Source: Escherichia coli (GTDB lineage Bacteria; Pseudomonadota; Gammaproteobacteria; Enterobacterales; Enterobacteriaceae). Taken from it: DNA of 64,000 nt. The stretch lies in the NCBI RefSeq assembly GCF_036507355.1, contig NZ_AP027877.1; one strand, written 5' to 3'. This document shows positions 18,001 through 24,000 of the stretch, piece after piece (position 1 is the first letter of the stretch; each line of letters begins with the position of its first letter). Made by a program: the position numbers.

Positions 18001-21000
18001 CTGATTGAAGAGCAACTCATCGATTATATCCGCACCACGCTGACCCATGCAGGCGGAATTACCGGTATGCGCCGGATTGCCGATTTTGCTTCGCTGTATC
18101 AGGTACGTACTGGCTCGCACGGTCCTTCCGATTTGTCACCAGTCTGCATGGCTGCGGCGCTGCACTTTGATCTGTGGGTCCCCAATTTCGGTGTCCAGGA
18201 ATACATGGGTTATTCCGAACAAATGCTCGAAGTCTTCCCGCACAACTGGACTTTCGATAACGGCTATATGCATCCGGGAGACAAACCGGGTCTTGGTATC
18301 GAATTCGATGAAAAGCTGGCGGCGAAATATCCCTATGAACCTGCTTATCTACCAGTCGCACGTCTGGAAGATGGCACGCTGTGGAACTGGTAAGGAGTAA
18401 GATAATGAAAAGCATATTAATTGAAAAACCGAATCAACTGGCGATTGTCGAACGTGAAATACCCACCCCGTCAGCGGGTGAAGTACGAGTAAAAGTGAAA
18501 CTTGCCGGAATTTGTGGTTCAGATAGCCATATTTATCGTGGGCATAATCCTTTTGCGAAATATCCGCGCGTCATTGGACATGAATTCTTTGGCGTCATTG
18601 ATGCGGTGGGTGAAGGTGTGGAAAGCGCCAGAGTCGGTGAACGTGTTGCTGTCGATCCGGTGGTCAGCTGTGGTCATTGCTATCCGTGCTCTATAGGTAA
18701 GCCGAACGTTTGTACGACACTCGCTGTATTAGGTGTGCACGTTGACGGTGGTTTCAGTGAATATGCTGTGGTTCCGGCAAAAAATGCGTGGAAAATTCCT
18801 GAAGCAGTGGCCGATCAATATGCGGTAATGATCGAACCTTTTACCATTGCGGCTAACGTAACCGGTCATGGTCAACCGACTGAAAATGATACCGTTCTGG
18901 TTTACGGTGCCGGTCCAATCGGCCTGACGATCGTTCAGGTATTAAAAGGCGTCTATAACGTTAAAAATGTGATTGTTGCCGATCGCATTGATGAACGACT
19001 GGAAAAAGCGAAAGAGAGCGGGGCTGACTGGGTGATTAATAACAGCCAGACACCGCTTGGCGAGATTTTCGCTGAAAAAGGCATCAAGCCGACATTAATT
19101 ATTGATGCGGCTTGTCATCCTTCTATCCTGAAAGAGGCCGTAACGCTGGCTTCTCCAGCGGCACGTATTGTATTGATGGGGTTCTCCAGTGAACCGTCTG
19201 AAGTGATTCAGCAAGGGATTACCGGAAAAGAACTCTCTATTTTCTCTTCACGCTTAAATGCAAATAAATTTCCGGTCGTTATCGACTGGTTAAGTAAAGG
19301 GTTAATTAAACCAGAAAAATTAATTAGCCATACGTTTGATGTCCAGCATGTTGCTGATGCCATTAGTTTATTTGAACAGGATCAAAAACATTGCTGCAAA
19401 GTCTTACTCACTTTTTCTGAATAATACTGAGGTGTACTGGCAATAGCGGACACTACCATTTGTTCTTTTTTTAAGCAGCCATCTGATGATATTTTTCCCT
19501 GAAGGCTGCCGGGGAGATATTCCCCAGACGAGAGTGACGACGCTGACGATTGTAGAAAATCTCAATGTATTCCCGTATTACTGAGATGGCTTCATCCCGG
19601 TTATTAAAACGATAGTGGCTCAGGCTCTCATTTTTCAGCGTTCCCCAGAAGCTTTCCATCGGAGCGTTGTCGTAACAGTTACCTTTACGCGACATTGATG
19701 TTTTCAGACCAAACTGCTCCTGTATGACCCGGTAATCGTATGCGCAGTACTGTGAACCTCGATCAGAGTGGTGGATTAGCCCGGCAGGTGGGCGCTGTCT
19801 CCTGAGCGCCATAAACAGGGCTTTACCTGTCAGCTCTTTTGTCATGCGCTCTCCCATGGCGTAGCCGACAATTTCGCACGTATAAACATCTTTGATGCCA
19901 GCGAGGTACAACCATCCCTCCTGTGTGGCAACATACGTCAGGTCCGCCACCCAGACCTGATTTGGTGCTGTAGGAGCGAACGTCTGGTTCAGCAGATTTG
20001 GCGCAACTGGCAGATTGTGGTTCGAGTTCGTAGTCGCTCTGAACTTGCGTTTCTGCTTACAGCGTAGCCTTAGCTCCTTACGAAGACGTGCCAGTCGGTC
20101 ACGACCAACGATGATGCCATTCTCTGCCAGCTCCGTCTGGAGCCGCCGGGTTCCATATGTTTCGCGAGTGCGGATATGTGCCACCTTAATCTCCAGTTTT
20201 AGCCGCTCATCACTTTGTTTTCTGTCTGAGGGTTCATGCTGTACCCAGTTGTAATAACCGCTCCTGGATACACCAAATACCTGACACATCGCTTCAATGG
20301 GAAATTGTTGTCGCCATTGTTCGATTAACGCGTATTTTTCAGCGACTCCTGTGCAAAATACGCTGTTGCTTTTTTTAATATATCTCGCTCAAGGCGAGCT
20401 TCATTTAACGCCTTACGCAGTTGCAGAATTTCAGATTCCAGTTCAGCCACCGTGCGGGAACCAGGAGTACCGAGCCCTTTTCTGGCGGCGGTAACCCATT
20501 GTCCTAAAGTGCCTTCAGGAAGAGATAATCGGGAAGCGCCTTCACTGATCGAAAGTTGATTTTCAAGAACCGTTCTGACAGCTTCGGCTTTGAACTCTTT
20601 AGAGTAACGTTGGGTTTTTCTGCTCATTATTAGCTCCTTCTGATGCCATTCTATTTCAGGAAGGAGTGTCCGTTAAACTCAGGCTACCTCATACCAATAA
20701 CGGCGAGTAAGTAGTACGCATCTTACCTCTTTTTTAGAGATAACCATTATGTCAATAGAAAAACACGAAAGAAGCACTAAGGATTTGGTGAAAGCAGCAG
20801 TATCGGGATGGCTGGGCACTGCGCTTGAATTTATGGATTTCAAGAGTCATGCGTGTTAACTATTTGATAAATATTAAATTAATTTTTCATTGCTTCGTTA
20901 TGGGGCATGGTTGGGGCAAACTCGCTTAACTGTGTATTTAACAAAGCTACCTGTGCATTATTGTTTTCAGACATCCATTTTCCGTATAGACCCTCCGCAT

Positions 21001-24000
21001 CTTGAGAGTGTTGGTGATAACGCCTGGATGGGAAAGAAATATGGACGGCTGAATAAAGATGCCTGGCGTGATGATTCGCGACAGAGATTTAAAGAAGCCT
21101 TTCGGGTGTTGAGGCCGCACGGCGTTCTGATTTTTTAATGGAATGAAACGCAAATACCGGTAAGCCAGATTCTGGCACTGACAGACAGAAAACCTGTTAT
21201 CTGTCAACGAACAGGGAAAAAACGATAAAACCCACTGGATTATTTTTATGAAAGAGGCATCCAGTGAGTAGATTCGTAAGGCTACAGATACGTATATCTG
21301 AATAATTAAATTCAGTTCTGTAAATAAAATTTAATCCTTAACCGGATGGATTTCTGCACCCTCAGAACATCAGGAGGCCGCCCGAAAGGGCGGTAGTGAA
21401 ATGCGAAAGTTCAAAATTATTATTGAAACGGGAATAGCTGGTGGAGATTTTGAGGATGTATTCGAAGTGGACGATGACGCAACACCTGAGGAAATTCATG
21501 ACGGAGCATAAGAAATTTTCTTTAACTACTGCAATTACTCATACCACGAAATAAAAGACGATGAGGAAGAACAAAGTGGCTGATTTTTGTTCAGCTAAAT
21601 ATAACATCAGTTTTGAAGAGCGGGATGAACTATTAATGGACTATGGTGAGTTACGCGGTGGAAGTGCTGCTGATGTCGAATCCTAGCGTGATGACTATGA
21701 AGCGGGAAAAACTCCGGTCGAAGCATATTGTGATGAGTGGGGCGATGAATGAGCGAGATTAATTATCAGGAAGGGCATGAAACGGCGGGGCAAGCAAAAC
21801 CAGTGGCATGGCGATATCGCTACGTGAAAAAAGGCGTTACGGACTTTCAGGGGAAGTAGTGGTCTGGTGACTGGAAATATGTACCGAAAAAAGAGGATTG
21901 TAACGACAGGCCGAACTATCAAATTCAGGCCTTATTCACTGCCTCACCAGTCCCAGTTACATCAGAAGAACTGGTTAAAGCTGTGCACTTTTATGAACAA
22001 CTAAAACGCGAAAATCCACCAACATCCGGCAACTAGATTAATGGATTAACTATGTCGGTTAAACGACCAGCCAACTGAAAAAGCGGAAACCTGATTACAG
22101 GTTGCCAGATAAGGCAATGAGCTACCTGGCGCGGAACGGACTGATAAGTATGGGGAATGTTTTACGATGAACCTTTAGACTAAAGAGTTTGTAACGCTAT
22201 GTAAGTGATTTTTTCTGGTTTAGATATTTATATGTCCGGCCAAATTGAGGTGTGTTTAAATGTAATTGCACATTGATTGTAGGAGGAATAATGAAAAACG
22301 CATTGCAGTTTTTGTTTGTTGCGTTCTGGTTGTTCGCATCATGTATGCCCATCATCTTCACAGCAAGGTGAATCGCCACGGATAATCTAGACACTTCCGA
22401 GCCGTTGATAATACTGGTTTTCATATTCTGTCGGTGACATCTGATCGCTGGAACCATGCCGACGCTTACTGTTATAAAACATTTCGATGTAATCAAAAAT
22501 ATCGCTGCGGGCTTCTTCCCGCGTTCCGTAGATCTTTTTCTTTATCCGTTCGCGTTTCAACAACTGGAAAAAGCTTTCTGCAACCGCATTATCATGGCAG
22601 TTACCGCGACGGCTCATGCTGCCATCCAGGCCGTGTGATTTCAGGAACGACTGCCACTCATGGCTTGTGTACTGACTGCCCTGATCCGAATGAACCAGCA
22701 CCTGTTTTTGGGGATTACGGCGCCATACAGCCATCAGCAGTGCGTTCAGGACAATGTCCTTTGTCATCCGGGATTGCATGGACCAGCCGATAATTTTGCG
22801 TGAGAACAGATCAACAACCACGGCAAGATACAGCCAGCCTTCGTGGGTCCTGATGTAGGTTATGTCCGTTACCCAACGCTTATCCGGAGCATCCGGATTG
22901 AACTGTCGCTGGAGCCTGTTGGGCGACACGATACTGGCCTCGCCTTTACGTGCCCGCGGGCTCCGGTATCCGACCTGAGCCTTTATCCCGACACGTTTCA
23001 TCAGTCGCCAGACTCTGTTCACTCCGCACTGTTGCCCGCTGTCCCGCAGATCCAGATGGATTTTGCGATAACCATAGACGCATCCCGATTCCAGCCAGAA
23101 CTGTTTAATCTGCCCTGTCAGCCTCAGGTCTGCCTGATGGCGTTGTGAATGCGGCTGCTGAAGCCAGGCGTAAAAACCACTGGGATGAACATCCAGCACC
23201 CGACAGAGCAGGCGAACAGGCCAGCAACAGGTGTTGTCACGGATAAAGGCGTACCTCAGTCGGACAGCTTTGCGAAGTACGCCGCGGCTTTTTTTAATAT
23301 GTCCCGTTCGTCGGTAACCCGCTTCAGCTCTTTCTGGAGACGGCGGATCTCGGCCTGAGCATCTGACTGTTCTTTATTAGCGGAAGAATCCGGACCGTAC
23401 TTCTTTATCCAGGCGTAAAGGCTGTGGGTGGTGATATCGAGACGTGTTGCAACGCTGGCAACAGAATAACCGCGATCAACAACCTGTTTGACTGCTTCAA
23501 TTTTAAACTCTTCGGGATAACGCTTACCGCTCATGGGCACCTCTCTTTAAGCCATCTTAAATGACTCTGAGGTGTCTGTTAAACCCGTGGCGATTCATAA
23601 TTGATCATGGGTTGTCAGTTAAACTCGTGGCGATTTAAATAGACTAATTGGGAGTGCGTCCATTACTTATATCTTGTAATGTTAACTATCAGAAATTCTT
23701 GTAATGTTAACTATCAGAAATGATACAAAGATAATATGTCTTTAAAGAAAAGGCTGATGGCGAAAAGTGGCCCGATGAGGGCCACAATACGGCTGTCACT
23801 TAGACGTAAATATCAATGGTGCCAGCGGTATTTGTATCGTCTTTTTTCTCTTCTTTTTTATCAGGCTGAACTGTCGCGTCTTCATTCTTTTTCTCTGCCT
23901 GCTGCCTTAACAACTGCTCCAGTTGAGCCCAGAGGCTTTCAATTTGCTTCTGTACCAATGCAGCCATTTCTTTTTTCTGCTGTGTCGTCATCCCCTCTTC

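What the first reader, a model, noticed from the sequence alone, without database searches (positions are those of the whole stretch)
20842..23640. Decayed prophage left arm remodelled by an IS3-family element
Between the left att and flxA there is only a string of stop-interrupted short ORFs (21401-22036), then an IS3-family element with no target-site duplication (flanks AGG and TAA), followed at 23611-23637 by a second partial copy of an IS end. Missing duplication plus a stray IS terminus suggests an IS-mediated deletion or recombination. That would explain the absence of the int/xis and dicBCA-type region that MG1655 carries here.
Basis: partly seen in the sequence, partly recalled or inferred. 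Interest (0 to 1): 0.5.

Follow-up and report, generated by a model that had tools for sequence, protein, structure and literature searches.

The report
Qin prophage arm: two separate deletions
The left arm of the cryptic Qin prophage here lost its integrase-to-regulator block through a plain 8.6-kb deletion, and separately lost 2 kb beside an ISEhe3 insertion sequence; this is ordinary prophage decay, and the IS did not remove the integrase.

Summary
Qin's left boundary is at 20842. Three small phage genes at 21401-22004 carry stops or a frameshift. An intact 1229-bp IS3-family element, ISEhe3, sits at 22369-23597 with flanks AGG/TAA and no 3-bp duplication. A second IS-end-like sequence lies at 23606-23637.

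The causal reading is only partly right. I mapped the window onto complete Qin-type left arms (phage PhiR42_1 of ECOR13, and E. coli ATCC 8739) and found two unrelated lesions.

- **Deletion 1, 8,576 bp.** It joins the last 110 nt of int to the last 150 nt of a methyltransferase gene at 20988/20989. The junction has 2 bp of microhomology and no IS sequence, and lies 1.38 kb from the IS. This deletion removed int, xis, exo, dicB, dicA, dicC and the replication genes.
- **Deletion 2, about 2.0 kb.** It ends exactly at both ISEhe3 termini. It removed only a degenerate ISEsa1 element (which includes 'ydfW'), a hok-leader fragment and the end of a small ORF.

The "stray" IS end predates this IS. 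It is present in IS-free Qin copies (ATCC 8739, MG1655) and on plasmids.

None of the three junctions occurs in 5,426 complete E. coli genomes. This is known biology: a routine, lineage-private decay allele.

The parts
19428..20691 (-). IS600 (context): a simple insertion just after the rspB stop codon, with a 3-bp duplication TAC
   Evidence: The same junction is present in draft contig GCA_905398585.1.
20749..20859 (+). ynfP, the N-terminal fragment of ydfJ split by Qin. The Qin left boundary (attL) is at 20842.
   Evidence: Alignment to the MG1655 annotation.
20879..20988 (-). 3' remnant of the Qin integrase gene: the last 36 of 431 codons
   Evidence: 35/36 identity to residues 396-431 of the PhiR42_1 integrase. 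Alignments.
20987..20990 (.). Junction of deletion 1 (8,576 bp, PhiR42_1 positions 1175-9750). 2-bp TA microhomology, no IS sequence.
   Evidence: The junction is absent from 5,426 E. coli genomes and from two collection scans.
20989..21138 (+). 3' remnant (150 of 357 nt) of a class I SAM-dependent methyltransferase gene
   Evidence: Annotation of ATCC 8739 and PhiR42_1. Alignment.
21401..21583 (+). DUF7167-family small phage gene; pseudogene with an in-frame TAA at codon 37
21576..21752 (+). Second small phage gene; pseudogene with a GTG start and an in-frame TAG
21749..22004 (+). Third small phage gene; pseudogene, frameshifted near codon 28
22291..22368 (+). First 26 codons of a small membrane-protein ORF, cut off by the IS. 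This is the left endpoint of deletion 2.
   Evidence: The ORF continues in ATCC 8739. Junction shown.
22369..23597 (-). ISEhe3 (IS3 family), intact. IRR 22369-22406; orfB from 22387; slippery A7G at 23288-23295; orfA 23256-23534; IRL 23560-23597. Flanks AGG/TAA, no duplication.
23598..23602 (.). Right endpoint of deletion 2 (PhiR42_1 11131 to 13134-13139). The position is ambiguous by 5 bp because the reference reads ATTCA, the same as the IS tip.
23606..23637 (+). IRL-like relic (25/32 to the ISEhe3 IRL; the tip dinucleotide reads TA instead of CA). Same orientation as the IS's IRL, tip 40 bp further right. Older than the IS.
   Evidence: Present in IS-free Qin and on plasmids.
23672..23721 (.). 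Perfect 25-bp tandem duplication. Context only; not part of the IS event.
   Evidence: Also present in ATCC 8739; single copy in OW1E2.
23800..24132 (-). flxA, the first intact Qin gene to the right of the scar

Best explanation
The interval is the left arm of a Qin-type cryptic prophage integrated in ydfJ. It carries two independent lesions plus older, shared decay.

Shown:
(a) An 8,576-bp deletion fused the last 110 nt of int to the last 150 nt of a methyltransferase gene at 20988/20989. It removed int, xis, exo, ydfD, the dicB/dicF region, ydfC/B/A, dicA, dicC, the ydaT-like gene, the O-like gene and the DUF977 gene. No IS is involved.
(b) An intact ISEhe3 occupies the place of about 2.0 kb of reference DNA, with both breakpoints exactly at the IS tips and no 3-bp duplication. 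The lost DNA is the end of a small ORF, the upstream piece of the hok leader, and a degenerate ISEsa1 whose transposase C-terminus is the gene annotated 'ydfW'.
(c) The three small pseudogenes and the IRL-like relic predate both events.

Inferred:
- Deletion 1 arose by illegitimate, microhomology-mediated joining.
- For deletion 2, ISEhe3 first inserted at its present right (IRL) junction just 3' of flxA. The DNA on its IRR side was then lost through the IS. The route was either re-insertion of a second direct copy about 2 kb away followed by homologous recombination between the copies, or transposase-mediated adjacent deletion from an active IS junction. I cannot separate these two routes.

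Consequence: the prophage is locked in place, with no int or xis. It has lost the DicB/DicF division inhibitors and their DicA/DicC regulators, but keeps flxA, ydfV, relBE, hokD and the whole right arm.
For: Collinearity with MG1655, showing what is replaced.

Mapping of both deletions on ATCC 8739 and on PhiR42_1, which is 99.9% identical over 20989-22368.

Base-level junction of deletion 1, with truncated genes on both sides.

IS identity and intactness, one nucleotide from a copy that is identical in four unrelated E. coli.

Normal 3-bp duplication in other copies against none here.

The relic in IS-free genomes and on plasmids.

Support for the right junction being the primary insertion site: two other E. 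coli (S1-CAM-01-C and OW1E2) carry different ISEhe3 sequence variants in the same orientation. Their IRL tips lie at window-equivalent 23749/23750 and 23647/23648, both within 152 bp of this copy's tip (23597/23598). Their IRR sides join variable, distant DNA (position 21915, and the ykgL region). Neither has a duplication.

IS-dependent deletions that start exactly at an IR tip are documented for copy-out/paste-in elements (PMC9333248). IS-driven gene loss is well described in Shigella and EIEC (PMC7373316).
Against: No intermediate was found. No genome carries ISEhe3 at either junction with a duplication, so the order of events and the route of deletion 2 remain inferred.

The hot-spot argument rests on three lineages only.

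The source genome is not identified, so other ISEhe3 copies in it could not be examined.

The IS junctions have no independent confirmation. The only matching public contig breaks at the IS600.

The 7-of-8 match between the reference sequence at the right breakpoint (GCAATTCA) and the IS tip (GCGATTCA) is unexplained. It may point to end-homology-guided joining rather than simple insertion.
Confidence: 0.8

Rival explanations
1. One reading: one IS3-family-mediated deletion or recombination removed the whole int/xis/dicBCA block, and the stray IS end is its footprint.
For: The IS has no target duplication and does border a deletion. In another strain (ETEC1720) an IS1 sits exactly at a junction that removed the same left arm, so IS-mediated loss of this block does occur.
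Against: The int-to-methyltransferase junction is 1.38 kb from the IS and contains no IS sequence. It is followed by 1,380 bp of collinear Qin DNA before the IS begins. The IS-bounded gap corresponds to only about 2.0 kb of reference DNA, none of it int, xis or dic. The stray end exists without the IS in ATCC 8739, MG1655 and plasmids.
Confidence: 0.03
2. IR-targeted insertion. ISEhe3 was drawn to the IRL-like relic, as IS911 and IS30 are drawn to sequences resembling their own ends. The unusual single-end transfer, processed by the host, produced the missing duplication and the 2-kb loss in one step.
For: The IS tip lies 8 bp from the start of a 32-nt IRL-like sequence. Three lineages have ISEhe3 in the same orientation within 152 bp. 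IR-targeting is described for IS30, and 'targeted' IS911 insertion is referred to in PMC9333248 and in the reference lists seen. That IS911 targets IR-like sequences when OrfA is absent is from my own knowledge of Loot et al. 2002, which I could not read here.
Against: Per PMC9333248, IR-targeting creates an abutted IRL-IRR junction with tips facing each other. Here the relic and the IS's IRL point the same way, tips 40 bp apart, so the defining geometry is not met. In the other two strains the IS tip lies to the right of where the relic would be, and the relic itself is gone.
Confidence: 0.1
3. Assembly artefact. Two real ISEhe3 copies about 2 kb apart, each with its own duplication, were collapsed into one by the assembler, creating a false deletion and false mismatched flanks.
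For: The IS is a multi-copy repeat in many strains, up to 21 places per genome. No independent sequence confirms either IS junction.
Against: The window runs through three IS elements, and two of them have clean duplications. A collapse would still require two insertions 2 kb apart. Real, analogous duplication-free ISEhe3 scars exist in two finished genomes at this locus.
Confidence: 0.05
4. The short arm is ancestral, and the longer arms in ATCC 8739 and PhiR42_1 gained DNA.
For: Qin size varies widely between strains, from 11 to 97 kb (PMC6379469).
Against: Both junctions cut genes in mid-frame: int at codon 396 of 431, the methyltransferase at nt 207 of 357, and the small membrane ORF at codon 26. 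Deletion 2 also removed one copy of the 15-bp direct repeat that flanks the ISEsa1-relBE unit.
Confidence: 0.02

Closest known systems
ISEhe3 (IS3 family), as found in E. coli and in S. flexneri reference genomes
   Same: 1229 bp; orfA/orfB with an A7G slippery site; TG...CA imperfect terminal repeats. It differs by one nucleotide from a copy that is identical in four unrelated E. coli. ISEhe3 is listed among S. flexneri IS elements in PMC7373316.
   Different: This copy lacks the 3-bp duplication seen at 3 of 4 comparison copies. It carries one conservative E-to-D change in OrfB.
Cryptic prophage Qin of E. coli K-12 MG1655
   Same: Same integration site in ydfJ and same left boundary. The right part, from flxA onward, is collinear at 99.5% identity.
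   Different: MG1655 keeps intQ (a pseudogene), IS2E, ydfE, ydfD, dicB, dicF, ydfC/B/A, dicA, dicC, ydfX and ydfW, which total 5,673 bp absent here. It lacks the 1,380-bp methyltransferase/small-ORF stretch that the window keeps, because of its own 4.8-kb deletion relative to ATCC 8739.
Complete Qin-type left arms: phage PhiR42_1 (E. coli ECOR13) and the E. coli ATCC 8739 prophage
   Same: 99.9% identity over window 20989-22368 and 99.4% from 23587 onward. The same three pseudogenes, the same IRL-like relic and the same 25-bp duplication.
   Different: They retain the 8,576 bp and the roughly 2.0 kb that the window has lost, and they have no ISEhe3.
IS-associated deletions in IS-rich E. coli and Shigella genomes, and deletions starting at the IR tip of copy-out/paste-in IS elements
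   Same: An intact IS, breakpoints exactly at the tips, no duplication, adjacent DNA lost. General phenomenon described in PMC7373316 and PMC9333248.
   Different: Nothing distinctive. Only the route (recombination between two copies, or adjacent deletion) is undetermined.

Membership tests
IS3 family insertion sequence (ISEhe3) | Two consecutive ORFs: OrfA with a helix-turn-helix domain and OrfB with the DDE (rve) catalytic domain | tested here: met
   NCBIfam NF033516 'IS3 family transposase': OrfA matches profile positions 1-85 and OrfB matches 110-369 (338 bits, cut-off 160).
IS3 family insertion sequence (ISEhe3) | Programmed -1 frameshift site (A6-7G) in the orfA/orfB overlap | tested here: met
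   A7G lies at IS nt 303-310 (window 23288-23295), inside the ...ILKKAAA... codons. RefSeq annotates near-identical copies with 'programmed frameshift'. Frameshifting itself was not assayed.
IS3 family insertion sequence (ISEhe3) | Imperfect terminal inverted repeats ending 5'-TG...CA-3' | tested here: met
   38-nt arms, 74% complementary, with tips TGAATCG.../...CGATTCA.
IS3 family insertion sequence (ISEhe3) | 3-bp target-site duplication at a simple insertion | tested here: not met
   The flanks here are AGG/TAA. Three of four comparison copies have CGG, GCG and CTT duplications. This speaks against a simple insertion, not against the element's identity.
IS3 family insertion sequence (ISEhe3) | At least 95% DNA identity to the ISfinder reference ISEhe3 | not testable with these tools
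   ISfinder is not available. The name rests on UniRef's 'ISEhe3 transposase A' for the identical OrfA sequence.
Qin cryptic prophage | Integration in ydfJ with the MG1655 left boundary | tested here: met
   Window 20691-20988 is 99.7% identical to MG1655 1652896-1652599, and the annotated boundary maps to 20842.
Qin cryptic prophage | Collinear Qin gene content (flxA, ydfV, relBE, hokD, rem, ydfU, the Q gene, csp genes, lysis genes) | tested here: met
   Window 23593-34685 is 99.5% identical to MG1655 1646919-1635839. ORFs.
Qin cryptic prophage | Left-arm int/xis and the dicA-dicC-dicB-dicF module | tested here: not met
   Only 36 int codons remain. There was no Rfam hit, DicF included, in 19000-27000. 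The deletion is mapped.
IS-dependent adjacent deletion or inter-IS recombination scar | Reference DNA ends exactly at both IS tips, with collinear flanks and no duplication | tested here: met
IS-dependent adjacent deletion or inter-IS recombination scar | A precursor state exists: the same IS at one junction, with a duplication and undeleted DNA | tested here: not met
   No genome among 5,426 E. coli shares either junction. There was no hit in the species-representative genomes.
IR-targeted insertion (IS911/IS30 type) | A new abutted IRL-IRR junction: the IS tip facing the tip of the targeted IR, a few bp apart | tested here: not met
   The relic and the IS's IRL are direct repeats, both tips pointing right, 40 bp apart. 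Geometry criterion taken from PMC9333248.

The most novel reading that the evidence does not exclude
The 32-nt IRL-like relic just 3' of flxA, carried by most Qin copies and by plasmids, may act as a decoy binding site for ISEhe3 transposase. That would make the 150 bp around it an orientation-specific insertion hot spot. It would explain why three unrelated lineages carry different ISEhe3 variants there in the same orientation, each followed by rearrangement on the IRR side.
Probability: 0.12. Interest if true: 0.4.

Novelty: already known. Interest (0 to 1): 0.12.

Why it matters
The interest is mainly in getting the annotation right.

This Qin copy cannot excise, because it has no int or xis. 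It has lost the DicB/DicF cell-division inhibitors together with their DicA/DicC regulators. It still carries relBE, hokD, flxA and the cold-shock genes.

The case also shows that an IS without a duplication, sitting next to a gap, should not be blamed for every missing gene nearby. Base-level mapping against a complete relative separated an IS-independent 8.6-kb deletion from a 2-kb IS-bounded one.

The specific allele is private to one lineage, but the processes are textbook.

Tried and rejected
- **Finding the same junctions elsewhere.** I searched 201-231-bp junction queries against 5,426 complete E. coli genomes. I also ran exact-pattern scans of species-representative genomes and of metagenome contigs. 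All were negative.

- **Identifying the source genome.** Exact look-up of junction-spanning ORFs found nothing on record or only cut contigs. The RspB allele led to one draft contig, GCA_905398585.1.

- **A 36-bp 'homology' at the deletion 1 junction.** BLAST suggested it. Base-by-base inspection showed a gapped over-extension, and the true overlap is 2 bp.

- **The relic as part of ISEsa1.** Rejected. Homology to free-standing ISEsa1 copies ends before the relic.

- **The relic as an IS600 end.** Rejected. At most 10 of 32 positions match in an ungapped, tip-anchored comparison.

- **One ancestral ISEhe3 insertion shared with S1-CAM-01-C and OW1E2.** Rejected. The three copies differ at 17-25 positions, whereas this one is 1 nt from the canonical copy.

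- **Rfam scan of 19000-27000.** Nothing reached threshold.

- **Reading Loot et al. 2002 and Rousseau et al. 2008 on IS911 targeted insertion.** Neither paper is held.

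
Full report
**Context.** The window is an E. coli-type chromosome, collinear in reverse with MG1655 1,672,319 to 1,607,883. MG1655's annotated cryptic prophage Qin (1,632,277-1,652,745) maps to window 20842 to about 38338. Three insertion sequences interrupt the window.
- IS600 at 19428-20691, just after the rspB stop codon, with a TAC duplication.
- The IS3-family element of the finding at 22369-23597.
- IS1 at 41081-41848 in ydfI, with a 9-bp duplication.

The source organism could not be named. The only exact relative found is a draft contig of GCA_905398585.1. 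It is 99.99% identical over 11.1 kb and ends 79 bp into the same IS600.

**Checking the observation.** All the descriptive claims hold.
- **Decayed ORFs.** The "string of stop-interrupted short ORFs" corresponds to three small phage genes that are intact in phage vB_EcoS-640R1. Here they carry an in-frame TAA, an in-frame TAG plus a GTG start, and a frameshift. The same lesions are annotated in ATCC 8739. The stretch is 99.9% identical to phage PhiR42_1 of ECOR13, so this decay is old and shared.
- **The IS.** It is 1229 bp with 38-nt imperfect terminal repeats. OrfA and OrfB match the NCBIfam IS3-family model, and an A7G slippery run sits in the overlap. UniRef names the identical OrfA sequence "ISEhe3 transposase A". 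The copy differs by one nucleotide (a conservative E-to-D change) from a copy that is identical in four unrelated E. coli, so it is probably still active.
- **Flanks.** They are AGG and TAA. Three of four comparison copies carry perfect 3-bp duplications.
- **Second IS end.** It lies at 23606-23637 and matches the transposase-proximal repeat (IRL) at 25 of 32 positions, against 17 of 32 for the IRR. Its tip dinucleotide reads TA instead of CA. A 20-mer match with 2 mismatches is expected 0.01 times by chance in this window.

**What is missing, and why.** The best references are E. coli ATCC 8739 and PhiR42_1, which carry a complete Qin-type left arm. Its order is int, xis, exo, ydfD, dicB, ydfC/B/A, dicA, dicC, a ydaT-like gene, an O-like gene, DUF977, a methyltransferase, three small pseudogenes, a small membrane ORF, a degenerate ISEsa1 (ISNCY family, IS1202 group), then flxA. 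The window aligns to PhiR42_1 in three blocks: 20826-20988 with 1013-1174, 20989-22368 with 9751-11130, and 23587/23598 onward with 13129/13140 onward. That gives two separate gaps.

**Deletion 1 (8,576 bp).**
- It joins int codon 396 to methyltransferase nt 207.
- The junction reads ...CCGTATA|GACCCTCC..., sharing only TA between the two parents.
- The int remnant encodes the last 36 residues of the protein.
- There is no IS sequence at the junction.
- The 36-bp overlap that BLAST reported there is a gapped over-extension.
- This deletion is the one that removed int, xis and the dic region.

**Deletion 2 (2,004-2,009 bp).**
- It is bounded exactly by the two ISEhe3 tips. The 5-bp ambiguity arises because the reference reads ATTCA at the breakpoint, like the IS tip.
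- It removed the end of the small membrane ORF, the upstream piece of the hok leader, and the degenerate ISEsa1.
- "YdfW" is residues 398-446 of the ISEsa1 transposase.

The two lesions are separated by 1,380 bp of collinear Qin DNA.

**The stray IS end.** It is not a product of this IS.
- The identical sequence sits at the same place in ATCC 8739 and MG1655, which have no IS3-family element there.
- It is also present on IncI and IncF plasmids of Salmonella, E. coli, Enterobacter and Edwardsiella that carry the ISEsa1-flxA-ydfV-relBE segment.
- It lies outside the stretch homologous to free-standing ISEsa1 copies.
- It is most simply a solo relic of an older IS3-family insertion.
- Its geometry does not fit IR-targeted insertion, which creates abutted, facing IRL-IRR tips (PMC9333248). 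Here it is in the same orientation as the IS's IRL, with tips 40 bp apart.

**Mechanism of deletion 2.** No precursor genome was found, so the route is inferred. Two other finished E. coli genomes carry ISEhe3 just 3' of flxA in the same orientation and without a duplication.
- **S1-CAM-01-C:** its junctions correspond to window 21915 and 23750.
- **OW1E2:** its right junction corresponds to 23648, and its left side joins the ykgL region.

Their IS sequences differ from the window's at 25 and 17 positions, so these are independent insertions.

In all three lineages the IRL tip lies within 152 bp downstream of flxA, while the IRR side joins variable, distant DNA. I therefore propose that the right junction is the primary insertion site, and that the IRR-side DNA was lost afterwards. 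The loss came either by recombination with a second, directly oriented copy or by transposase-mediated adjacent deletion. Both are standard for copy-out/paste-in IS elements and for IS-rich E. coli and Shigella (PMC7373316).

A collapsed-repeat assembly artefact cannot be excluded, but it is unlikely.

**Comparison with what is known, and verdict.** Qin length varies from 11 to 97 kb among strains, and inactivated integrase genes are the rule (PMC6379469). An IS1 sits at an independent deletion of the same arm in ETEC1720. The locus is thus an ordinary, lineage-private decay allele of a well-known cryptic prophage, carrying a well-known IS.

The only mildly novel possibility is that the relic makes the flxA-downstream region an orientation-biased ISEhe3 hot spot. 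That rests on three cases and fails the canonical IR-targeting geometry.

Noticed in passing
window 23598-25249 (remnant); full unit in L002 7734-11062: ISEsa1 + flxA + ydfV + relB + relE form one 3.3-kb unit. It has imperfect terminal inverted repeats (18/25) and is flanked by a 15-bp direct repeat, GGAGAAGCAGGCTAT, whose right copy ends at the hokD ATG (window 25235-25249). Phage vB_EcoS-640R1 has the empty site. The same unit sits in hok loci of IncI and IncF plasmids. That relBE integrated into hokD is already reported (PMC6379469). I did not find the ISEsa1-bounded, transposon-like structure described anywhere.
   Followed up: partly
L021 (pNDM-CIT) versus L002 7709-7748: An independent ISEsa1-like copy on a Citrobacter plasmid sits at the same relative position of a different hok leader. 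This hints at a target preference of this IS1202-group element for hok leaders.
   Followed up: no
L001 6934-8162 (S1-CAM-01-C); L005 2869-4097 (OW1E2): Two other E. coli carry different ISEhe3 variants in the same orientation within 152 bp downstream of flxA, both without duplications. One of them is joined to the ykgL region, which indicates a larger rearrangement.
   Followed up: partly
L004 5076-5844 (ETEC1720): An IS1 lies exactly at an independent deletion that removed Qin's left boundary through the 5' part of the DUF977 gene. In that strain the left-arm loss really is IS-associated.
   Followed up: partly
window 23672-23721: A perfect 25-bp tandem duplication (TCTTGTAATGTTAACTATCAGAAAT x2) lies downstream of flxA. 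It is shared with ATCC 8739 but single-copy in OW1E2.
   Followed up: partly
MG1655 ydfW (b1567); L002 8987-9136: The annotated protein YdfW is 48/49 identical to residues 398-446 of the ISEsa1 transposase, so it is a transposase C-terminal fragment.
   Followed up: yes
window 19428-20691 and 41081-41848: IS600 inserted immediately after the rspB stop codon (TAC duplication). IS1 inserted in ydfI (9-bp duplication TAGCTTGTT). Three IS elements in 64 kb suggests an IS-expanded lineage, yet speG appears intact at 186 aa.
   Followed up: partly
window 59502-59999: A 498-bp stretch in the 5' region of dgcF is present here but absent from MG1655. This looks like a K-12 deletion rather than an insertion in the window.
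   Followed up: partly
L025 7567-10080 (GCA_026226965.1): In another genome, the same variable slot between DUF977 and flxA holds KwaA/KwaB (Kiwa defence) and a QueH-like gene. This part of Qin is a cargo hot spot.
   Followed up: no
window 34685-35542: Identity to MG1655 breaks down in the stfQ (side tail fibre) region, down to 96% with gaps. This is probably tail-fibre cassette variation.
   Followed up: no
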